From the UHGV virus genome UHGV-0812067: 17,252 nucleotides of DNA; one strand, written 5' to 3'. Source of the DNA: a virus. Every line of letters begins with the position of its first letter. The first letter of the stretch is position 1. The position numbers and the translations under genes are program-made. Under the pieces are notes generated by a model. It worked only from the letters and a program-made list of their open reading frames with translations. It was not told the origin of the DNA and ran no database searches. Of the stretch, positions 2,978-15,693 are shown in pieces.

Positions 2978-3525
2978 TGAAGGCGATTGAAACCATACAG
3001 CGACAACTCCTCGGCCTGATTGGGCGGGCGGTGGTGAAAAGCATCAGTGCCGCCACGAAATGTCAGACCGTGGATGTGTCCCTGATTGCCGGTGAACCCA
3101 AAGCCGGGGTTGAACATCTTGAACCCTACGGTTTTACCGCAAGGGCAAACAGCGGTGCGGAAGCGGTGGTGTTGTTTCCGGATGGCGACCGTTCTCATGC
3201 GGTGGTTGTTACGGTGTCGGACCGGCGCTACCGCCTGAAAGGGCTGCAGACGGGTGAGGTGGCTGTCTATGACGATCAGGGGCAGTCCGTGACGCTGGCC
3301 CGGGAGGGGATCGTGGTGGACGGTGCAGGTAAAACGATCACGTTTCGCAATGCGCCTAAGGCACGTTTTGAAATGGACCTGGAAGTGACCGGACAGGTGA
3401 AAGACCTGTGCGACTCCACCGGCACCACCATGTCAGCGATGCGGCTTGCCTATAACGGGCATCGTCACAGAGAGAACGGTCAGGGCAGTAACACCGACAA
3501 ACCTGATAAAGTGATGGAGGCATGA
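2977..3525 (+). CDS. Mu gp45 / gpV-like baseplate spike protein
   Basis: 182-aa ORF with AGGAGGA upstream (2961-2967) and start overlapping the upstream stop. Sequence and size are typical of phage baseplate assembly protein V. Confidence 0.75.
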   Translation: MKAIETIQRQLLGLIGRAVVKSISAATKCQTVDVSLIAGEPKAGVEHLEPYGFTARANSGAEAVVLFPDGDRSHAVVVTVSDRRYRLKGLQTGEVAVYDDQGQSVTLAREGIVVDGAGKTITFRNAPKARFEMDLEVTGQVKDLCDSTGTTMSAMRLAYNGHRHRENGQGSNTDKPDKVMEA

Positions 3526-3950
3526 TGGAACTGTGGCTGACGGTGAACGGTAAACGCACCTGCGCCAGCGCACAACTGGATCCGCTGACCCGCGCCGTGG
3601 TGATTTCCCTGTTTACCTGGCGGCGGGCGGAGCCTGATGACAACGCCGAAGTCCCGATGGGATGGTGGGGGGATACCTGGCCTGCGGTACAGAATGACCG
3701 TTACGGCTCCCGACTGTGGCTGCTTCAGCGCAGCAAACTGACCAATCAGCTGGTGCAGACGGTAAGGGGGTATATCCGCGAATGCCTGCAATGGATGATT
3801 GATGACGGCGTGGTGTCCCGTATTGATCTGGATATCCGCCGCACCGGGATTAATGAACTGGGTAACAGTATCACTCTCTGGCGTCGTGACGGACCGGTAA
3901 TGATTTCTTTTGATGATCTGTGGAGTGCGATAACGCATGGCGGACAGTGA
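3525..3950 (+). CDS. Mu gp46 / gpW-like baseplate wedge protein
   Basis: ORF track starts at 3522 (ATGATG); the second ATG at 3525 has better spacing from GGAGG (3516-3520). About 140 aa, consistent with the GP46/gpW family by position and size. Confidence 0.7.
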   Translation: MELWLTVNGKRTCASAQLDPLTRAVVISLFTWRRAEPDDNAEVPMGWWGDTWPAVQNDRYGSRLWLLQRSKLTNQLVQTVRGYIRECLQWMIDDGVVSRIDLDIRRTGINELGNSITLWRRDGPVMISFDDLWSAITHGGQ

Positions 3951-4995
3951 ATTTCAGCGCCCGACGCTGGCAGAAAATATCAGTATGCTCCGTAACGATT
4001 TATTCGCCAGGCTGGACGTCAGCGACACGCTCCGGCGCATGGATGAAGACGTGCGGGCAAAGGTGTATGCGGCGGCGCTGCATACGGTTTACGGTTACAT
4101 CGATTATCTGGCAATGAACATGCTGCCTGATCTGTGCGATGAGTCCTGGCTGGCGCGACATGCTGCGATGAAACGGTGTCCGCGCAAGGGGGCCACGGCT
4201 GCCAGCGGGTATATGCGCTGGGAAGGTGTCAGCGATGGCCTGAAGGTGACCGCCGGGAGTGTTATTCAGCGCGATGACCTGGTTCAGTACACGGCAACTG
4301 CCGATGCAACCAGCACTGGTGGTGTCCTGCGTGTGCCGATCACTTGCTCAACTACAGGCGCGGTCGGTAACGCTGACGACGGTACGGCATTAATCCTGGT
4401 CACACCGGTGAATGGTCTGCCGTCTTCCGGTGTGGCTGACACCCTGACAGGCGGATTTGATACTGAAGAGCTGGAAACGTGGCGCGCCCGCGTCATTGAG
4501 CGGTATTACTGGACGCCTCAGGGCGGGGCTGACGGGGACTATGTCGTCTGGGCTAAAGAAGTGCCCGGCATTACCCGCGCATGGACATACCGTCACTGGA
4601 TGGGAACGGGAACTGTCGGTGTGATGATTGCCAGCAGTGACCTGATTAATCCCATTCCGGAAGAATCAACGGAAACGGCAGCAAGACAACATATCGGGCC
4701 ACTGGCCCCGGTGGCAGGCTCTGATTTGTATGTATTCAGGCCGGTGGCACATACGGTGGATTTTCATATCCGCGTGACGCCGGACACACCGGAAATACGG
4801 GCTGCCATTACCGCGGAGTTGCGTTCGTTCCTGCTGCGTGATGGTTATCCGCAGGGAGAACTGAAGGTATCGCGTATCAGTGAAGCGATTTCCGGTGCGA
4901 ACGGGGAATACAGCCATCAGTTGCTTGCACCGGTGGACAATATCTCCATTGCAAAAAATGAACTGGCGGTACTGGGGACGATTTCATGGACGTGA
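3937..4995 (+). CDS. Mu gp47 / baseplate J-like protein
   Basis: 352-aa ORF overlapping the upstream gene by 14 nt. Size and position match baseplate J-like wedge proteins (gpJ of P2, gp47 of Mu, JayE of e14). Confidence 0.8.
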
Positions 4996-6536: not shown

Positions 6537-6943
6537 TGAATAACATTTATGCTGTTGTTGAAAATGGCGTGGTGATCAACATCGTCGTCTGGGATGGGAA
6601 ATCGGAATGGCAACCGGTAACTGGGGAGGCTGTTTCTTGTTCTGCTCAGGTTGGTATCGGCTGGTTGTATGATGGAAGTAATTTCACCCAGCCACCAACA
6701 CCCGAGCAGACTCCAGAAGAATTAGCAGCGGCAAACATGGCTAAAGCTGCATCTGAGTATGAACGTGCCAGCGTAGTCATTGTAGCGCTAAATGAGCAGA
6801 TCGAAGACGAGGACTACGCAGGGACTACGGAAGAGGCCGTGAAATCAGAATTGGCCGCATGGACTGACTATCGTAAACAGCTTCGCGCTTACATTAAGGC
6901 CGGGGATGGCAGCCAGACACTACCATCCTTTGTAATGATTTAA
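6536..6943 (+). CDS. tail fibre assembly/chaperone-like protein for the current fibre form
   Basis: ATG overlaps the fibre stop (TAATG at 6534-6538) with GAGGAG upstream (6522-6527). C-terminus ...AWTDYRKQLRAYIKA resembles the Tfa C-terminal W-x-x-YR motif. The N-terminal part is not classic Tfa. Confidence 0.55.
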   Translation: MNNIYAVVENGVVINIVVWDGKSEWQPVTGEAVSCSAQVGIGWLYDGSNFTQPPTPEQTPEELAAANMAKAASEYERASVVIVALNEQIEDEDYAGTTEEAVKSELAAWTDYRKQLRAYIKAGDGSQTLPSFVMI

Positions 6944-7323
6944 ACTGGTCGTGTAGGCCACTCTATATCGGGAGCCGTGCTGGTATCAGTTCGCATCACG
7001 GCAACCCGATAATCTTCCCACGAGGTTAATCTAGCAGCTTCTTCATCAGTCGCTATTCCTGCGGTTACTGCATATTGAAGAGGTGATATTGCAAAAGTTG
7101 CTGCCGCCAGCAGCTCTGCTTTTTTCTGATTTGCAATCGCTACTTGCTGATCATGAGTCAGTGGCGCAGGGTCGCTCAGTTCGGGAAAACCACTTTCGTT
7201 TGCAATAATTACCTTTCCTCCCGCCTGCCCAATCACCAATTCTGACCAGTAGTCGTCGGTAATCTCCACCTGGCTATCACTCATCCGCCCAACCGTAAAT
7301 CCAATCTCTGTGGAATAAAACAT
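6940..7323 (-). CDS. tail fibre assembly protein (Tfa), alternative-orientation copy
   Basis: C-terminus ...ATDEEAARLTSWEDYRVAVMRTDTSTAPDIEWPTRPV matches the conserved Tfa C-terminal motif. Its stop codon overlaps the convergent + strand stop within TTTAAA (6940-6943). Confidence 0.8.
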   Translation of the reverse strand: MFYSTEIGFTVGRMSDSQVEITDDYWSELVIGQAGGKVIIANESGFPELSDPAPLTHDQQVAIANQKKAELLAAATFAISPLQYAVTAGIATDEEAARLTSWEDYRVAVMRTDTSTAPDIEWPTRPV

Positions 7324-7685
7324 TACGCACTCCCCATAGCCATATATTTAAAAGAAAAAGATCCGTTCAGATTTGCCCCTGCGGCATCCTTTCCGTAAAT
7401 TGTCACAACCGAACCTGATTCAGGAATGGCGGCATAACTAACAACGCCTGAGCCAATATCAGTCGGGATAAAAGTAAAACCAGTGCTGGGGTAAGCCAAT
7501 GGAAGAGTAAAGCTCAGTACGCCGTTAACAAAATTTCCAGATCCACTGCCCTCCATTATTCTACGGTTTCCTGCAATCACTATTGAAGTAAATACGTTTG
7601 AAGCGCCAGCGTATGTGAAGTTTGACATGTCTGGAATTTGACCAGTTCCTGTACCCACATCTTTTTTGGCTGCTGTTCCCAAACC
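7323..7685 (-). CDS. silent alternative tail-fibre C-terminal segment (Sv'-like), lacks its own N-terminus in this orientation
   Basis: Minus-strand frame is open from the stop at 7692-7694 through the crossover site to TAA at 7323-7325. It reads ...KVGLGTAAKKDVGTGTGQ..., with GLG encoded by the same ggtttggga as NLGLGD in the + fibre, in the same frame. The TTG 'start' in the ORF track is probably not a real start. Confidence 0.65.
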   Translation of the reverse strand, partial: GLGTAAKKDVGTGTGQIPDMSNFTYAGASNVFTSIVIAGNRRIMEGSGSGNFVNGVLSFTLPLAYPSTGFTFIPTDIGSGVVSYAAIPESGSVVTIYGKDAAGANLNGSFSFKYMAMGSA

Positions 7686-7758: not shown

Positions 7759-8322
7759 ATGATTTACGGGTATGTTCGTGTATCAACAAATCATCAGGAT
7801 ACAGAGTTGCAACGTCTTGCACTTGAGTCAGCTGGCTGTGAGCGAATTTATGAAGAATATGCCAGTGGCAGAACAGCTAATCGCCCTGTGTTAAAGGAAT
7901 TAATTACGGTGATGAAAAGTGGAGATGAGTTGATTGTCTGGAAGTTAGATCGGATAGGGAGAAATGTGCTGCATGCGCTATTGATGTTTCAAAATCTGCA
8001 CGAAAAAGGTGTTAATTTTCGGAGTATTACAGATGGCGTAGACCTGAAAACAGCAAGTGGTCGCTATAATTTCCGTAATATTCTTTCTGCTGCGCAGTAT
8101 GAATCTGATTTGAATAGCGAGCGAACTTTAGCTGGTTTGGCTATTGCCAGATCCAAAGGCCGGATTGGTGGGCGTAGACCGAAGTTTAGCGACGAGCAGT
8201 GGCAACAGATGGGAGCGCTCATAGCGGCAGGGAAATCACGGCGTTATGTTGCACGTATCTATAACGTTGGGCTATCAACCCTATATAAACGATTTCCTGT
8301 TACTGGCATTCAAACGAAATAA
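7759..8322 (+). CDS. serine DNA invertase (Gin/Cin/Pin/Hin family resolvase-type recombinase)
   Basis: MIYGYVRVSTNHQDTELQ... contains the catalytic Ser motif (YVRVS), VWKLDRIGR, GRIGGRRPK and a C-terminal HTH ...GLSTLYKRFP. It is 187 aa and sits adjacent to the invertible segment. Confidence 0.9.
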   Translation: MIYGYVRVSTNHQDTELQRLALESAGCERIYEEYASGRTANRPVLKELITVMKSGDELIVWKLDRIGRNVLHALLMFQNLHEKGVNFRSITDGVDLKTASGRYNFRNILSAAQYESDLNSERTLAGLAIARSKGRIGGRRPKFSDEQWQQMGALIAAGKSRRYVARIYNVGLSTLYKRFPVTGIQTK

Positions 8323-8465: not shown

Positions 8466-8714
8466 TTAGTGAACAAACCACTCGTCAGCAGATTCCCAGG
8501 TATCTTTCAGAGTCTCCTGAACAAAAGTTTTTGCAGAATCCTTATCTGCGGTGCGTGTAACAGAAAGGCCATCGTTGCTGGTGGCTTTTACGATCACCTC
8601 TACATCGTCATAACGTTTACTGATGCGTCGGGTTAATTCTTCCTTTAACGCATCCACAGCACCGGTTGGCATTTTAGTCATTTTTTCTTTGGCTATGCAG
8701 ATTTCAATACGCAT
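8466..8714 (-). CDS. dinI: DinI-family (DNA damage-inducible protein I-like) protein
   Basis: 82 aa, [11 protein letters not shown]...AVDALKEEL...[11 protein letters not shown], closely resembling the DinI pattern (MRIEVTIAK...ETWESADDWF). SD-like GAGGGA precedes the start; LexA-box-like palindromes lie upstream. Confidence 0.85.
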
Positions 8715-8775: not shown

Positions 8776-9873
8776 TCAAGGGGTCTTATTTCTGCTCCTT
8801 TGGAGCTCTTCAAAACGATTATGTAAAGATTTCGGATACAGTTCGGTATATACCTGCCATAGCACGTTTAATGAACGATGCCCTGTAACCTGGGCTACTT
8901 CCTCAATACTAAAACCAGCCTCAAATAAGCGACTTGCCCCTTCTCTACGCAAATCATGGTATCGCAGATCCTTAATACCTAATTTGCTTCTTACCCTCTG
9001 AAATCCCGCAGTAACAGAAGTGCTGTTATATGGAAAAATGAATTCCGATTTTTTGGGCTGTCGTTGGACGATATCCCAGGCTTCCCCAAGCAAGGCTACT
9101 TTCATGTGGTTGCCTTCCTTTTTGCGTGGATCTTTCCTGTCTCTTACGAGTATAGATTTTTGTTCCTGGTCGAGATCTTCCCATCGTAACCGGCATACTT
9201 CTCCGATTCGCATACAGGACCACACAGAAAATTTGAGGATATCAACGAACGGAATTTTTGAGCATTTATGAGTAGATCGTTGTTGAAGGCCTTCAATGAG
9301 CATGTCCAGTTCATCAGATGCTGGTCTACGATTACGACGGTTTGATTTACCAATCAAACCAAGTTTAAGTAGATATGGACGAGCACTTTTCGCCGGGTTT
9401 GATGTGTAATTAATTCCGTATACAGGTTTGGCCGCATCCAGAACACTGCCAAGATAACTAACATCGTGGCTGACTGTTGCTGGACCTGCGCCAGCGTTGT
9501 TTCTTAGCCTGCAATGTTCAATTACGTCATTTTCTGTCAGTTCAGATAGTTTGATCGCGGAGATGTCACTATCCATAAGCAGTTCCAGCACATATCTTTT
9601 AGTACGGCCTGCTTTACCTCCGGCATTTGGGTCATTTAAATATTTGTGTAGTAAGTCACGGACTGTAAGTCCGTCAACTGCATTTGATGATGGAATGCCA
9701 TATAGATCTAATTCCATCACTTTCTGTGTGCCCCATGTTTTGGCATGAGCATGTTTAGGGAATGTTTTGCTTTCCCTGTAAGTGATAACACCTTTTTCTT
9801 TGATAATCACATTACAGCGATAGCGTGGTGTGCCATCGGATTTTAGTCGTTTCTCTATGTTATAGTACGCCAT
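8776..9873 (-). CDS. tyrosine site-specific recombinase (phage integrase)
   Basis: 365 aa. The C-terminal catalytic region has the R...HxxR...Y arrangement (...LRYHDLRREGASRL...VTGHRSLNVLWQVYTELYP). GAGG lies 7 nt upstream of the ATG at 9873. Confidence 0.9.
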   Translation of the reverse strand: MAYYNIEKRLKSDGTPRYRCNVIIKEKGVITYRESKTFPKHAHAKTWGTQKVMELDLYGIPSSNAVDGLTVRDLLHKYLNDPNAGGKAGRTKRYVLELLMDSDISAIKLSELTENDVIEHCRLRNNAGAGPATVSHDVSYLGSVLDAAKPVYGINYTSNPAKSARPYLLKLGLIGKSNRRNRRPASDELDMLIEGLQQRSTHKCSKIPFVDILKFSVWSCMRIGEVCRLRWEDLDQEQKSILVRDRKDPRKKEGNHMKVALLGEAWDIVQRQPKKSEFIFPYNSTSVTAGFQRVRSKLGIKDLRYHDLRREGASRLFEAGFSIEEVAQVTGHRSLNVLWQVYTELYPKSLHNRFEELQRSRNKTP

Positions 9874-9929: not shown

Positions 9930-10105
9930 AATGCGAGAAAAATAGCCTGAAATGTTCAAAAATGCACGATAATCATGAAACACAAAAAATTAATCAAACC
10001 AGCGTGATGCCTGAAAAAACTGGTGTTTACTGGAATTCTCGGTTTAGCATTGCTCCTATGCTCGATAGGATGTACCGTTTTTGAAAAACAAGTAGTTATA
10101 CACTT

Positions 10106-10129
10106 TGTGGGAGCCTATTGGGAACCTGT
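10106..10129. repeat. second cluster of GGGA(A/G)CCT motifs
   Basis: gtgggagcct (10107-10116) and ttgggaacctgt (10118-10129); the latter repeats 9909-9919 (tgggaacctgt). It lies about 200 bp from the first cluster across an AT-rich spacer. Confidence 0.45.
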
Positions 10130-10319
10130 TATTCTTAGAAAGCATCATTTGCTCATCACTTCAATTGACCATGGTTAAAGCCAGCTATAAACTTGACAAA
10201 CGAGGTAACTGGTTGCTTAGGCCCAAGTGGGCACACCATAAGAAGCTCATGTTGGTGATGAAGCAACCCATGAAGTATCGAGAATAATTATAAAGTTCAC
10301 TATCTTTGAGGTTTCTTAT

Positions 10320-10892
10320 ATGTTTTGCGAAGAAAAAGTAGCTCAAATGGCTGCATACCTACTTCTTAAGAGAGGTGGGCGCATGGCATATCTGAAATTG
10401 ATGAAGCTGCTCTATCTGTCTAACCGCCAGTCGATTTTGAAGCATGGCAGGATGATCGGCGAAGATAGCCTTTACTCTATGAAATTTGGACCAGTCATGT
10501 CGAATACGCTGAACTTGATTCGCGGTAAGGCTGAAGGCATTGGTGACTACTGGTACAACTTGATAGAGACGAACGGGCATAATGTATCGTTGCGTTCAGA
10601 TCCGAGGGAAATGGATGCAGACGAGGTCTTTGATGAATTGAGTCGTGCAGATATCCGGATTTTAGATGAAATCTATTCTCGGTATGGGCATATGAACCGA
10701 TTTGATCTCGCAAATATGACGCATTTAGAAAGCGTTTGTCCAGAGTGGCACGATCCTGGCAATTCTCGTAAGCCTATAGACCTGAAAGAAATGCTGATCA
10801 GTGAGGGTAAAAGCGAGGATGAGGCTAATCGCATAATTGGCAAAATGGAAGAATCTCAGAAACTTAAGGAATTTTCTTTGCAATTATCATGA
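10320..10892 (+). CDS. Panacea-domain (DUF4065, PanA/SocA/GepA-like) protein, putative antitoxin or sensor component
   Basis: ATG at 10320 with GAGG (10308-10311, 8-nt spacer). Residues about 20-70 (...AYLKLMKLLYLSNRQSILKHGRMIGEDSLYSMKFGPVMSNT...) fit the Panacea signature (KLqKLLYL ... w/y-GPV). Coding DNA is low-GC relative to flanking phage genes. Confidence 0.75.
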   Translation: MFCEEKVAQMAAYLLLKRGGRMAYLKLMKLLYLSNRQSILKHGRMIGEDSLYSMKFGPVMSNTLNLIRGKAEGIGDYWYNLIETNGHNVSLRSDPREMDADEVFDELSRADIRILDEIYSRYGHMNRFDLANMTHLESVCPEWHDPGNSRKPIDLKEMLISEGKSEDEANRIIGKMEESQKLKEFSLQLS

Positions 10893-11308
10893 CGGATTAT
10901 CAGCCATACAGGAAAGGAACTGTGCTTGCCCCAACTGGACCATGCAATCATCTTCATGTGATTTGTAATGATCCTGTTTATTACCCCGTTAACGATTGTT
11001 ATTGTGTTTTAGTTGTTAATATTTCTAGTATCAAGGATGGTGTCCCCCACGATCCGTCTTGCGTCTTGAATTCTGGTGATCATCGCTTTATCAAGCATCC
11101 AAGTTATGTTGTTTACGCTGAAGCTATAATTTGGCGAGTGGATAACATGGTTAGAAAGCAGCGATCGGGTGAGATTTCTGTTCATGATGATATGCCAGAA
11201 GCTACATTCAATAGAATTCTGGACGGTTTTGATATCTCTGATGAAGTTACGCCAAAGAACCTTAAATTTAAAAATAAATATTGCGTATCATCTATTGATG
11301 ATGAGTAA
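10889..11308 (+). CDS. hypothetical 139-aa protein translationally coupled to the Panacea-domain gene, candidate toxin/effector
   Basis: ATGA overlap at 10889-10892 with the upstream stop. Protein MTDYQPYRKGTVLAPTGPCNHLHVICNDPVYYPVNDCYC... has Cys/His-rich motifs and I recognise no family. Lowest GC in the window. Confidence 0.65.
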   Translation: MTDYQPYRKGTVLAPTGPCNHLHVICNDPVYYPVNDCYCVLVVNISSIKDGVPHDPSCVLNSGDHRFIKHPSYVVYAEAIIWRVDNMVRKQRSGEISVHDDMPEATFNRILDGFDISDEVTPKNLKFKNKYCVSSIDDE

Positions 11309-11347
11309 ACAACAGGAATTGTTTCGGTATAACTTCTGGAGTTTTCT

Positions 11348-11521
11348 ATGGAAGATCAAAAAGCAACCAAGCCACAGGTTAAGTTCGACACAATGAAAGC
11401 ATTCGCAGGTATGGGTGCTGCTGTTGAAGTTCTGATGAAGGCTGCTCCTAACGCGTTCACTCACGCTATTGTCTCTGGTAAAGAGCAGCAGGGTAAGCTT
11501 CGTCGTCGCAAGGCAGCATGA
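11348..11521 (+). CDS. small 57-aa protein of unknown function (not in the ORF track, below its length cut-off)
   Basis: Hand translation: MEDQKATKPQVKFDTMKAFAGMGAAVEVLMKAAPNAFTHAIVSGKEQQGKLRRRKAA. GGAG (11338-11341) lies 6 nt before the ATG, and a strong intrinsic terminator follows 22 bp after the stop. Codon choice looks like a well-expressed enterobacterial gene. Confidence 0.5.
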   Translation: MEDQKATKPQVKFDTMKAFAGMGAAVEVLMKAAPNAFTHAIVSGKEQQGKLRRRKAA

Positions 11522-11543
11522 TCATAGCTGGTGCTTTTTGAAA

Positions 11544-11573
11544 GCCCGCCATCTGGCGGGTTTTTCTTTTTTA
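11544..11573 (+). terminator. rho-independent terminator
   Basis: gcccgcc-atct-ggcgggt GC-rich stem followed by tttttctttttt. Confidence 0.75.
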
Positions 11574-11585
11574 TCGGTGCGGAAC

Positions 11586-11858
11586 TCAACTATTTTTCTG
11601 TTTGTTCGTTCTGACCCTTTCCCATTCAATTCTGCCTTCTTCACGCCGCTGGTCTATATACTCAGCAAGATCCTGAATGTTGATACAGCGCTTCGCTTTC
11701 TGTGATGTTCCTACACGGTAAGTCGGGATCGGCAACTGACAGGCATTTGCTTTCGCTTCTGCTGTGTTAGGGCTCATACCGAAATACTTTTGGCATACCG
11801 CTGACAGCTCGATGTTAGGCGTGTTGAACTCAGCCATAAGTAAAAACAAAGTATTCAT
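11586..11858 (-). CDS. PrtN-family (pyocin activator-like) small DNA-binding protein; possible regulator or recombination directionality factor
   Basis: 90 aa, MNTLFLLMAEFNTPNIELSAVCQKYFGMSPNTAEAKANACQLPIPTYRVGTSQKA..., the characteristic N-terminus of PrtN-like proteins common in enterobacterial prophages. GGAG lies 7 nt upstream of the ATG. Confidence 0.7.
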   Translation of the reverse strand: MNTLFLLMAEFNTPNIELSAVCQKYFGMSPNTAEAKANACQLPIPTYRVGTSQKAKRCINIQDLAEYIDQRREEGRIEWERVRTNKQKNS

Positions 11859-11896: not shown

Positions 11897-12469
11897 TTAC
11901 AGGTCGCTGCTGGTGGCCGGAATCAACTTCTGCCAGATCGCGGACACGTATTTTGCTTGATGTCGCGCATCGGCCAGTGCGTTATGTGCAACCCCATCGA
12001 ATGGCATATCTCGCTTTGGATCGAAACCCACCACTCTGCCTAATGTGACGATGGTTCTGACGTCGTGATCGTTCCAAAATTGCCACGGGCAAACCTGGCC
12101 GGTGCGCTCATATGCGCCGCGCAATATAACGTTGTCGAAAGTAGCTCCATTGCCCCAAACTTTTAAATATTTGGGGTTATCAGAATGCCGATTAATGAAA
12201 TGGCTCAGTTCAGATAGGGCAGACGATATCGGCATCGCATCATCAACACAGATTGCTGATCGTGCTTCTGAGCTTTGTCTTAACCACCACAGAATAGTGT
12301 CACCATCCGGCACCGCTCCCTGCTCCATAGCGCTTTCAAGGTTAACGGCGGTGTAAAACTCCTGACCCAGTTCACCGCTTTGCGGATCGAAGAACACGGC
12401 ACCAATGGAGACGATAGGGGCATTCGGTCTTTTGCCCATAGACTCAAGGTCGATCATTAAATTGTTCAC
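11897..12469 (-). CDS. DnaQ-like 3'-5' exonuclease (DEDDh family)
   Basis: Motif I MIDLESMG, central FDN and C-terminal H-x4-D (VAHNALADA). GTG at 12469 has AGGAG 10 nt upstream; an alternative ATG is at 12457. Confidence 0.75.
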   Translation of the reverse strand: MNNLMIDLESMGKRPNAPIVSIGAVFFDPQSGELGQEFYTAVNLESAMEQGAVPDGDTILWWLRQSSEARSAICVDDAMPISSALSELSHFINRHSDNPKYLKVWGNGATFDNVILRGAYERTGQVCPWQFWNDHDVRTIVTLGRVVGFDPKRDMPFDGVAHNALADARHQAKYVSAIWQKLIPATSSDL

Positions 12470-15228: not shown

Positions 15229-15693
15229 TCTCGGTTCCTCAACGCCTCTGCACCGGCGCTAAAAAGTTAGTTTCTCCATACACAACAGAGAAGGGCACCT
15301 GCATTGGTCGGCGGCTTGCAGAGACCGCTTTCTTTTTGCCCGGGTGGATTGGGTTATGAGCCCGTCGTCCGGTGATGCTCTTCTCTGTTTTGTAAAAAGG
15401 ACGGTACCAGCCGGAAGCAAGGGTACAAACTGGTACCGCCAGGACTACACACAGCATAAAGTTGTGGTGCCGGGTGCCTCCCGGTGCCTGGCGAAGGTTG
15501 CACACCAGGCGGGTGGGTATCCACAGAAGGTCGACTGTCAGCCTCAACCTTAACCCGCGTGCGCTGAGCCGCATTCACCACAACGCTAAGGATTCTCTCT
15601 GGTTGAAAATACTTAGCTGTTATGTGCCTGTCTTTTCACCACTTCAGGCTCGGTGGTATCCTTTTAAGCCCGTATACATAAAAGGAAAATCAA

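What the first reader, a model, noticed from the sequence alone, without database searches (positions are those of the whole stretch)
11348..11573. Unannotated 57-aa gene with strong RBS, host-like codon usage and a strong terminator
This gene is below the ORF-track length threshold but has a GGAG RBS 6 nt before the ATG and a GC-rich terminator 22 bp after the stop. It uses codons typical of well-expressed enterobacterial genes (ctg, gaa, ggt, cgt, ttc, aac), unlike the neighbouring low-GC Panacea genes. The product has a basic C-terminus (KLRRRKAA). It may be a third component of the cargo module or an independent moron.
Basis: seen in the sequence. Interest (0 to 1): 0.4.

Follow-up and report, generated by a model that had tools for sequence, protein, structure and literature searches.

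The report
Orphaned small partner gene in prophage
The 57-codon gene is real and conserved, but it does not belong to the neighbouring Panacea toxin-antitoxin pair: it is the leftover small half of a different two-gene phage cassette whose larger, acetyltransferase-like gene was swapped out here, and its function has never been tested.

Summary
ORF 11348-11521 (+) has a GGAG six bases before the ATG, the highest E. coli-type codon adaptation of 27 ORFs in the window (CAI 0.56 against 0.18-0.46), and a strong intrinsic terminator at 11540-11573.

It is a genuine protein-coding gene. It matches PHROG 2741 over its full length (E 2.6e-35). Homologues of 54-61 aa occur in temperate phages across Enterobacterales. 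dN/dS is 0.14-0.29 and there are no indels. Public records already annotate it as a hypothetical protein (WP_175565499.1; mEp460 gp24).

In every other lineage the gene sits 95-200 nt downstream of a 177-184 aa GNAT-fold gene (PHROG 4350). That pair occupies at least five different phage positions. Among 194 loci, the GNAT-like gene never occurs without the small gene, while the small gene occurs alone in 42.

In this window the segment 10127-11334, which holds the Panacea pair, has replaced the GNAT-like gene. The right junction lies at the Shine-Dalgarno sequence. 203-205 of 562 E. coli carrier genomes share this swap.

My best guess, at moderate confidence, is a labile helix-forming neutraliser or regulator of the GNAT partner, orphaned here. 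The finding is catalogued, uncharacterised and of modest interest.

The parts
11338..11341 (+). Shine-Dalgarno GGAG, six nt before the ATG. It also marks where homology with GNAT-type phages such as mEp460 begins (11335-11338).
   Evidence: Sequence. A purine-rich SD-like motif lies 9-14 nt before the ATG in 14 of 16 homologues. Junction position.
11348..11521 (+). 57-aa protein-coding gene, a member of PHROG 2741. The product has a Lys-rich N-terminus, one predicted helix (residues 15-32), the invariant residues L29, P34, E46, Q48 and G49, and a basic tail ending in Ala-Ala.
11540..11573 (+). Intrinsic terminator: hairpin 11540-11565 followed by a T-run. It ends the + strand unit and separates it from the convergent excisionase gene.
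   Evidence: Most of the 11 aligned homologues show a G+C-rich hairpin plus T-run shortly after the stop, with different sequences in the distant ones.
10127..11334 (+). Swapped-in segment carrying a promoter-like site and the Panacea pair. It replaces the 803-bp segment that in mEp460 holds the GNAT-like gene and its spacer (L065 4185-4987).
   Evidence: The blastn breakpoints are window 10126 / L065 4184 on the left and window 11335 / L065 4988 on the right. Promoter-like site TTGACC-17-TAAACT at 10165-10193.
10320..10892 (+). Panacea-domain (PanA-like) gene, first gene of the present transcription unit. This is context, not a partner of the small gene.
   Evidence: PF13274, E 2.2e-19.
10889..11308 (+). 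139-aa gene overlapping the PanA-like gene by 4 nt (PHROG 19071, function unknown). It is the presumed toxin of the Panacea pair and lies immediately upstream of the small gene.
9962..10084 (+). Phage-borne surrogate 5' end of dusA, with the att core just downstream. In lysogens the displaced host dusA 5' end takes this position and points into the same unit.
   Evidence: The dusA-specific integrase family is described in PMC4482086.
11586..11858 (-). PrtN-type excisionase gene, convergent with the small gene. It is the constant right-hand neighbour in dusA phages.
   Evidence: PF11112, E 3.2e-24. PHROG 1300 'excisionase'.

Best explanation
Shown by the evidence: ORF 11348-11521 is a real, efficiently translated gene for a 57-aa basic protein of PHROG 2741. 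Its native setting is a compact mobile cassette: a 177-184 aa GNAT-fold gene (PHROG 4350), a spacer of about 95-200 nt, the small gene, and an intrinsic terminator. This cassette sits in moron-type positions of many temperate Enterobacterales phages. In this dusA-integrating lambdoid phage a recombination event replaced the GNAT-like gene and spacer with a Panacea toxin-antitoxin pair. The right breakpoint falls at the small gene's Shine-Dalgarno sequence. The small gene therefore survives as an orphan and is probably read as the last cistron of the Panacea transcript, ending at its own terminator. That transcript may start at the cassette promoter and, in lysogens, perhaps also at the displaced host dusA promoter.

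Inferred mechanism: the small protein is the neutralising or regulatory partner of the GNAT-fold protein, in the manner of an antitoxin. It would be largely disordered and would fold its hydrophobic helix 15-32 onto the partner. It would be made in excess, given the strong SD and a CAI roughly twice its partner's. It would be kept short-lived by the conserved basic tail ending in Ala-Ala, which resembles ClpX recognition signals. In this window it has no cognate partner. It is then either a recent relic or an orphan neutraliser that could blunt the GNAT protein of an incoming related phage.
For: Real gene: PHROG 2741 match E 2.6e-35 over 57/57 positions. There are 46 protein clusters, down to 65% identity, mostly 57 aa long, and profile hits down to about 36% identity. 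dN/dS is 0.14-0.29, there are no indels in 89 loci, and variation is biased to third codon positions. No other reading frame stays open in all 16 homologues.

Native pairing: a GNAT-like gene lies directly upstream in these settings:
- mEp460 and Salmonella dusA phages;
- Enterobacter and Franconibacter, and Pseudescherichia and Escherichia sp. ESNIH1, where the surroundings look chromosomal;
- Hafnia, Edwardsiella and Serratia phages, between the antiterminator and the lysis genes;
- a Photorhabdus phage, inside a tail-gene block;
- a Brenneria phage, beside the repressor gene;
- another dusA prophage, beside the integrase.

Asymmetry: among 194 loci, 152 have both genes, 0 have the GNAT-like gene alone and 42 have the small gene alone. 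In complete E. coli genomes, 562 carry the small gene, 358 of them with the GNAT-like gene and 203-205 with the Panacea pair. The GNAT-plus-small query also matched 562 genomes, 358 of them over at least 80% of its length, so no large extra set of genomes carries the GNAT-like gene without the small gene.

Expression bias: the small gene's CAI is 0.39-0.60 and its partner's is 0.19-0.29 in five lineages.

One helix at residues 15-32 is predicted and the rest is disordered. There is no transmembrane segment and the net charge is +6. All 16 divergent homologues end in AA or VA after a basic run.

No promoter-like site lies between 10193 and the ATG.
Against: No experiment bears on the function of either protein. 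The small protein has no detectable similarity to the known antitoxins of GNAT toxins (RHH/DUF1778 type). Unlike those, it lies downstream of its partner and is separated from it by a 95-200 nt spacer.

The GNAT-fold match is generic. Protein N-terminal acetyltransferases and polyamine acetyltransferases score as well as the toxins do, so toxicity of the partner is an assumption.

The 'GNAT never alone' asymmetry rests on few independent events: one swap in E. coli phages plus one other orphan (L106/L107).

The degron reading rests on a resemblance I recall (ClpX C-terminal signals, Flynn et al. 2003), not on a test.

Orphan copies are all intact. Their polymorphism (5 synonymous, 7 nonsynonymous) looks more relaxed than in paired copies (8 and 2), but not significantly so (Fisher p = 0.10). 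Whether the orphan does anything here is therefore open.
Confidence: 0.45

Rival explanations
1. Autonomous small effector. The 57-aa protein acts by itself on a host or phage target, for example as a small basic inhibitor in the style of Kil or DicB, or as an exclusion factor. Its linkage to the GNAT-like gene would reflect co-regulation rather than direct interaction. On this view the copy in the window is fully functional.
For: It persists intact, with all family-invariant residues, in about 36% of E. coli carrier genomes that lack the GNAT-like gene. It has its own SD and a high CAI. A second orphan sits at a prophage end in another species.
Against: The swap is recent: orphan and paired copies differ by 3-5 nt in 174. 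Intactness therefore says little about selection. Nonsynonymous variants at otherwise conserved positions (A20V, V26A, L29M, R54L, A56V) appear only among orphan copies. Linkage to the GNAT-like gene across at least five unrelated phage positions is tighter than co-regulation alone would need.
Confidence: 0.2
2. Substrate or cofactor of the acetyltransferase. The GNAT-fold enzyme acetylates the Lys-rich small protein at its N-terminus or on lysines, or needs it as a specificity subunit, and the modified pair carries out the function. Without the enzyme, the copy in this window is an inert relic kept only because it carries the terminator that shields xis.
Against: The lysine positions are not invariant across the family, whereas L29, P34, E46, Q48 and G49 are. 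A CAI twice that of the enzyme's gene suits a stoichiometric binder better than a catalytic substrate, although this is weak evidence. The fold matches are too generic to point to a substrate.
Confidence: 0.15
3. Third component of the Panacea module. The small protein would work with PanA and its toxin, for example as a regulator or accessory.
For: It is co-oriented with the pair, 39 nt after the 139-aa gene, has no promoter of its own, and shares the terminator. This arrangement is stable in 203-205 E. coli genomes.
Against: It co-occurs with a Panacea gene in one closely related set of E. coli phages only. Everywhere else the upstream gene is GNAT-like. The homology break at the SD shows that the small gene belongs to the recipient backbone. 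Kurata et al. 2022 (PMC8832971) found that third genes next to PanAT pairs are sporadic and unlikely to take part in toxicity or neutralisation.
Confidence: 0.05
4. Not a protein gene. On this reading the region acts only as RNA or as a terminator, and the ORF is incidental.
For: The terminator is strong. The 18-nt spacer before it is nearly invariant among the closer relatives. There is a sub-threshold Rfam match to the rnk leader, 31.9 bits against a gathering score of 55.
Against: dN/dS is 0.14-0.29 and variation is biased to third codon positions. The protein profile is conserved down to about 36% identity while the nucleotide sequence, including the 3' spacer, has diverged. The SD is conserved. 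No Rfam family reaches its threshold. The published prophage sRNA-17 lies elsewhere, at 15401-15430.
Confidence: 0.02

Closest known systems
PHROG 2741 / mEp460 gp24 (YP_007112098.1), RefSeq WP_000390072.1 and WP_175565499.1
   Same: Same family. The match is full-length (E 2.6e-35) and the window's exact protein is already in public databases.
   Different: Nothing differs in sequence terms. These entries are all 'hypothetical protein' or 'phage protein', with no function assigned. In mEp460 the gene follows the GNAT-like gp23; here it follows a Panacea pair.
GNAT-toxin / RHH-antitoxin type II systems (AtaT-AtaR, TacT-TacA, KacT-KacA)
   Same: In related phages the partner has a GNAT fold and matches these toxins structurally. 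Both are compact two-gene units on mobile elements. The small component is strongly expressed and can persist without the large one, while the large one is never seen alone.
   Different: The small protein has no RHH/DUF1778 domain and no sequence similarity to AtaR, TacA or KacA. It is encoded downstream of its partner after a 95-200 nt spacer, rather than upstream and overlapping. It is only 54-61 aa long, with a single predicted helix. Toxicity and neutralisation are untested. In this window the GNAT-like gene is absent altogether.
PanAT (Panacea-domain antitoxin with diverse toxins; Kurata et al. 2022, PMC8832971)
   Same: The small gene shares a strand, a probable transcript and a terminator with a PanA-like gene and its partner.
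   Different: The association is limited to one phage lineage and was created by a cassette swap. The small gene is not part of the PanAT architecture.
Phage morons (Hendrix-type accessory transcription units in lambdoid phages)
   Same: The cassette is accessory, differs in composition from its neighbours, ends in its own terminator, and occupies the classic moron sites: between the antiterminator and the lysis genes, at prophage ends, and beside the repressor.
   Different: In this window the small gene has no promoter of its own and is only half of the unit that moves elsewhere.
ClpX C-terminal recognition signals (ssrA-like ...LAA and MuA-like RRKKAI; recalled from Flynn et al. 2003)
   Same: The tail is KLRRRKAA. 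Every one of 16 divergent homologues ends in AA or VA after a basic run.
   Different: This is a resemblance only. No degradation data exist, and the penultimate residues differ from LAA.

Membership tests
PHROG 2741 (small phage protein, unknown function) | Significant full-length match to the family profile | tested here: met
   E 2.6e-35, 121 bits, residues 1-57 against profile positions 1-57 of 57.
GNAT-like (PHROG 4350) plus small-protein (PHROG 2741) two-gene cassette | A PHROG 4350 GNAT-fold gene on the same strand, 95-200 nt upstream | tested here: not met
   In the window the upstream genes are a Panacea-domain gene and a 139-aa gene. No GNAT-like ORF is present: the window's upstream region clusters with the Panacea-type loci, and the GNAT-like gene lies in the mEp460 segment that has no counterpart in the window. 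The feature is met in 152 of 194 related loci.
GNAT-like (PHROG 4350) plus small-protein (PHROG 2741) two-gene cassette | An intrinsic terminator directly after the small gene | tested here: met
   Hairpin 11540-11565 plus a T-run. Most of the 11 aligned homologues show a G+C-rich hairpin plus T-run after the stop.
Type II antitoxins of GNAT toxins (RHH/DUF1778: AtaR, TacA, KacA) | A ribbon-helix-helix / DUF1778 domain | tested here: not met
   No Pfam hit at E <= 10 for 16 family members, apart from one spurious match. A profile search of PDB sequences finds no antitoxin. AlphaFold2 predicts a single helix.
Type II antitoxins of GNAT toxins (RHH/DUF1778: AtaR, TacA, KacA) | Antitoxin gene upstream of the toxin gene, adjacent or overlapping | tested here: not met
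   The small gene is always downstream. The stop-to-stop distance is 270-371 nt, which gives a spacer of about 95-200 nt.
Type II antitoxins of GNAT toxins (RHH/DUF1778: AtaR, TacA, KacA) | The partner is a growth-inhibiting GNAT acetyltransferase that is neutralised by direct binding | not testable with these tools
   Only the GNAT fold of the partner in related loci is shown. Toxicity, binding and neutralisation need experiments.
PanAT module (accessory third gene) | Conserved co-occurrence with a Panacea-domain gene across lineages | tested here: not met
   It is found with Panacea in 203-205 of 562 E. coli carrier genomes, all of one near-identical arrangement. It is never found with Panacea in the other genera examined.
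Moron (autonomous accessory transcription unit) | Own promoter and own terminator, with composition unlike the flanking phage genes | tested here: inconclusive
   The terminator and the distinct codon usage are met. No sigma-70-like site lies between 10193 and the ATG, but the scan is a simple consensus match.
Known RNA families (Rfam 15) and published prophage sRNA-17 | A match at or above the family's gathering score, or sequence identity to sRNA-17 | tested here: not met
   The only hit is the rnk leader at 31.9 bits against a gathering score of 55. The sRNA-17 sequence matches window 15401-15430, not this locus.
ClpXP substrates with a C-terminal degron | A C-terminal Ala-Ala or basic MuA-like tail, together with ClpXP-dependent turnover | tested here: inconclusive
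   The sequence feature is present and conserved. Turnover cannot be tested here.

The most novel reading that the evidence does not exclude
PHROG 4350 and PHROG 2741 together form an undescribed toxin-antitoxin-like or defence-type cassette. It would comprise a divergent GNAT-fold effector and an unrelated, degron-tagged, single-helix neutraliser of 54-61 aa encoded downstream. The cassette hops between moron sites of temperate Enterobacterales phages. The orphan copy in this window would then act as an anti-addiction or immunity factor against related superinfecting phages that bring the GNAT effector.
Probability: 0.25. Interest if true: 0.55.

Novelty: new member of a known kind. Interest (0 to 1): 0.3.

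Why it matters
As it stands, the result corrects an annotation-level reading. The gene is real, but it should not be counted as part of the Panacea system. Its presence beside that system records a precise cassette swap at a prophage-end hotspot, with the breakpoint at a ribosome-binding site.

The more useful by-product is a tightly linked and widely mobile pair that nobody appears to have characterised: a GNAT-fold gene plus a small gene, carried by about 10% of complete E. coli genomes, including O157:H7 and O111 strains, and by many Salmonella.

If the pair proves to be a toxin-antitoxin or defence module, it would add a GNAT system with a new kind of neutraliser. It would also supply a natural set of orphan neutralisers, 203 genomes, for studying anti-addiction. 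If not, this is one more conserved small phage protein of unknown function.

Tried and rejected
- Pfam, NCBIfam and PADLOC scans of the small protein gave nothing. Pfam and PADLOC also gave nothing for the GNAT-like partner.
- A profile search of PDB sequences with the small-protein alignment gave only weak DARPin matches (E 0.17-1.1) to the Ala/Val-rich helix. The all-protein profile search also pulled in two long repetitive proteins through the same segment. One of them has no ankyrin domain. I treat these as compositional matches.
- The PDB sequence search with the GNAT-like alignment returned only spurious gp41 coiled-coil hits.
- I checked whether this locus is the published ArcA-regulated prophage sRNA-17 of mEp460-like prophages (PMC7719688). 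It is not: that sequence matches window 15401-15430. The RS218 record was not in the collection.
- I considered a 3'UTR-derived sRNA, because the 18 nt before the terminator are nearly invariant among close relatives. That spacer is not conserved in the more distant homologues, and Rfam gives nothing above threshold, so I dropped the idea.
- A membrane-peptide or type I toxin reading is rejected. The highest 19-residue Kyte-Doolittle mean is 1.05, and E27 and K31 sit inside the helix.
- A role with the excisionase is rejected, because the cassette also sits between the antiterminator and the lysis genes, in a tail-gene block, and beside a repressor gene.
- A possible internal promoter, TAAACA-16-TATAAC at about 11306-11333, was seen by eye. 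Its start site would fall at or inside the SD, so I did not adopt it.
- The afdb50 fold library was unavailable.
- The test for relaxed selection in orphan copies was inconclusive (p = 0.10).

Full report
**1. What is in the sequence**

The ORF on the + strand runs from ATG 11348 to TGA 11519-11521 and encodes MEDQKATKPQVKFDTMKAFAGMGAAVEVLMKAAPNAFTHAIVSGKEQQGKLRRRKAA. GGAG lies at 11338-11341, six bases before the ATG.

The terminator scan finds an 11-bp hairpin with 6 G-C pairs at 11540-11565, followed by TTTTTCTTTTTT. As RNA, the centroid hairpin has an energy of -16.7 kcal/mol.

It is 0.562, the highest of 27 ORFs in the window. The other ORFs score 0.18-0.46, and the two Panacea genes score 0.23 and 0.26. 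Only 17 of 10,000 synonymous recodings drawn from the window's own codon usage reach this value.

**2. Is it a gene?**

ORFs of this size are common by chance; one search lists dozens. Conservation settles the matter.

- The product matches PHROG 2741 over 57 of 57 positions, E 2.6e-35.
- A search of 5.8 billion proteins finds 46 clusters, mostly 57 aa long, down to 65% identity. They come from Escherichia, Salmonella, Enterobacter, Atlantibacter, Franconibacter, Cronobacter and Hafnia.
- A profile search of 1.8 billion cluster representatives adds members of 54-61 aa down to about 36% identity.
- In 89 loci the coding sequence is always 174 nt long.
- Variable sites fall 13/14/31 by codon position.
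- dN/dS against the divergent copies is 0.14-0.29 at dS 0.33-0.48.
- This is the only one of the six reading frames that stays open in all 16 divergent homologues, and an SD-like motif precedes the ATG in 14 of them.

The gene is already annotated as a hypothetical protein in RefSeq, in phage mEp460 (gp24) and in phage Lys8385Vzw. The exact protein is WP_175565499.1. No Pfam, NCBIfam, PADLOC or PDB-sequence relative exists.

**3. Surroundings in the window**

The window is a dusA-integrating lambdoid phage in its unintegrated (attP) configuration. The features, left to right, are:

- a tyrosine integrase at 8776-9873 (-);
- a phage-borne surrogate 5' end of dusA at 9962-10084 (+), followed by the att core;
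- a Panacea-domain gene at 10320-10892 (+), PF13274, E 2.2e-19;
- an overlapping 139-aa gene at 10889-11308 (+);
- the small gene and its terminator;
- a convergent PrtN-type excisionase at 11586-11858 (-);
- an exonuclease gene at 11897-12469 (-).

In a lysogen (locus L001) the displaced host dusA 5' fragment sits directly upstream of the Panacea gene on the same strand. This fits what is described for dusA-specific integrases (PMC4482086).

No sigma-70-like site lies between 10193 and the small gene's ATG. Here the small gene is therefore most probably the last cistron of the Panacea transcript.

**4. Where the gene really belongs**

In related loci the upstream neighbour is not a Panacea gene. 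It is a conserved ORF of 177-184 aa (mEp460 gp23, PHROG 4350), 95-200 nt upstream.

The pair occurs in these settings:

- beside xis, or beside int, in dusA phages of Escherichia and Salmonella and in one further dusA prophage;
- between the late antiterminator and the lysis genes in phages of Hafnia, Edwardsiella, Serratia and others;
- inside a tail-gene block of a Photorhabdus phage;
- beside the repressor gene in a Brenneria phage;
- in what looks like plain chromosomal context in Pseudescherichia and Escherichia sp. ESNIH1.

The small ORFs found next to distant GNAT-like genes are true homologues.

Profile searches over all 194 loci held give 152 with both genes, none with the large gene alone, and 42 with the small gene alone. 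All 80 loci retrieved with the large gene as bait have the small gene downstream.

**5. The partner is a GNAT-fold protein**

Pfam does not recognise it. An AlphaFold2 model (pLDDT 76, pTM 0.75) matches 138 PDB chains at E <= 1e-3 by Foldseek; all 50 listed are GNAT-type acetyltransferases. They include SpeG, GCN5, NAT9 and the toxins KacT and AtaT.

**6. The swap**

A blastn comparison of the window with mEp460 shows 98% identity up to window 10126 and renewed homology from 11335. Window 10127-11334 carries a promoter-like site and the Panacea pair. It replaces 803 bp of mEp460 that carry the GNAT-like gene and its spacer. The right breakpoint is at the SD.

In 5,426 complete E. coli genomes, 562 carry the small gene. 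Of these, 358 have the GNAT-like gene upstream and 203-205 have the Panacea pair. Together that accounts for essentially all carriers. The GNAT-plus-small query matched the same number of genomes, 562.

The small gene is thus part of the recipient backbone and did not arrive with the Panacea genes. Kurata et al. (PMC8832971) likewise found that third genes next to PanAT pairs are sporadic.

**7. What the protein looks like**

AlphaFold2 predicts one helix, residues 15-32, at moderate confidence (pLDDT 73-79 across that segment). The rest is disordered. There is no transmembrane segment: the highest 19-residue Kyte-Doolittle mean is 1.05. The net charge is +6.

Across 16 divergent members, L29, P34, E46, Q48 and G49 are invariant. 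T15, G23, A25, K31 and A32 are nearly so. Every member ends with a basic run followed by AA or VA.

The small gene's CAI (0.39-0.60) is about twice that of its GNAT-like neighbour (0.19-0.29) in five lineages.

**8. Most likely mechanism (inference)**

Several features fit a partner-binding neutraliser or regulator of the GNAT-fold protein, in the manner of an antitoxin:

- tight linkage to the GNAT-like gene, wherever the pair sits in a phage genome;
- the one-sided dependence, in which the large gene is never alone and the small gene sometimes is;
- the higher translational potential of the small gene;
- a broad hydrophobic helix flanked by disordered basic tails;
- a conserved C-terminal ...RRKAA, which resembles ClpX recognition signals (recalled from Flynn et al. 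2003).

In this window the protein has no cognate partner. It would be either a recent relic or an orphan neutraliser.

The caveats are substantial. The protein shares no homology or gene order with the known RHH/DUF1778 antitoxins of GNAT toxins. Toxicity of the partner is assumed, not shown. The asymmetry rests on few independent events.

Orphan copies show 5 synonymous and 7 nonsynonymous variants, against 8 and 2 in paired copies. Some orphan variants fall at otherwise conserved positions. The contrast is not significant (Fisher p = 0.10).

**9. Rivals**

The rival readings are:

- an autonomous small effector;
- a substrate or cofactor of the acetyltransferase, which the high ranking of protein N-acetyltransferases in the fold searches would suit;
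- a third Panacea component, contradicted by the distribution;
- a non-coding element, contradicted by the substitution pattern and by the absence of any Rfam match.

The published sRNA-17 of mEp460-like prophages is a different locus, at window 15401-15430.

**10. Verdict**

The gene is a catalogued but uncharacterised small phage protein. Its context here is the scar of a cassette exchange and not a three-gene Panacea system. Interest is modest. The side finding, a widespread and uncharacterised pairing of a GNAT-fold gene with a small gene, is the part worth an experiment.

Noticed in passing
window 9962-10126 (+): This is a phage-borne surrogate 5' end of dusA. Its 35 codons closely resemble the host DusA N-terminus. 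The att core follows it. The window is therefore a dusA-integrating phage in the attP configuration. In lysogens the displaced host dusA 5' end, and presumably its promoter, points into the Panacea / small-gene unit.
   Followed up: partly
window 7759-8322 (+), with 6940-7682 (-): A serine recombinase gene (Resolvase domain E 3e-36, plus HTH_7) lies next to two oppositely oriented ORFs at the end of the tail-gene block. The layout resembles a Gin/Cin/Pin-type tail-fibre inversion switch.
   Followed up: no
window 8466-8714 (-): A DinI-like gene (PF06183, E 1e-19) lies just downstream of the integrase gene. It has the second-highest CAI in the window, 0.455.
   Followed up: no
window 15401-15430 (+): A 28-of-30 match to the start of the published ArcA-regulated prophage sRNA-17 (PMC7719688). 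It lies inside ORF 15239-15574 (-), so this phage carries at least part of that reported sRNA locus.
   Followed up: partly
L065 4805-5000, and the equivalent spacer in L005, L006, L009, L010 and L097: The 150-200 nt spacer between the GNAT-like gene and the small gene holds conserved palindromes, CCAATCG-N5-CGATTGG and TACCTTnAAGGTA. They could be an operator or an RNA structure. The whole spacer is missing from the window.
   Followed up: partly
L090-L093 (Hafnia phages), about 3050-4110: A RelA_SpoT-domain gene of 319-352 aa, resembling a toxic small alarmone synthetase, sits immediately upstream of the GNAT-like / small-gene cassette, between the antiterminator and the holin gene. The site looks like an accessory or defence-gene hotspot.
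   Followed up: no
L101 5381-5848 (-): In one Salmonella prophage an HTH_31 + 2TM gene is inserted between the small gene's terminator and the excisionase gene. This shows further cargo turnover at the same junction.
   Followed up: no
L106 4001-4171 and L107 195-365: This is a second, independent orphan copy of the small gene (about 36% identical to the window's). It lies at a prophage end after the lysis genes, with no GNAT-like gene nearby.
   Followed up: partly
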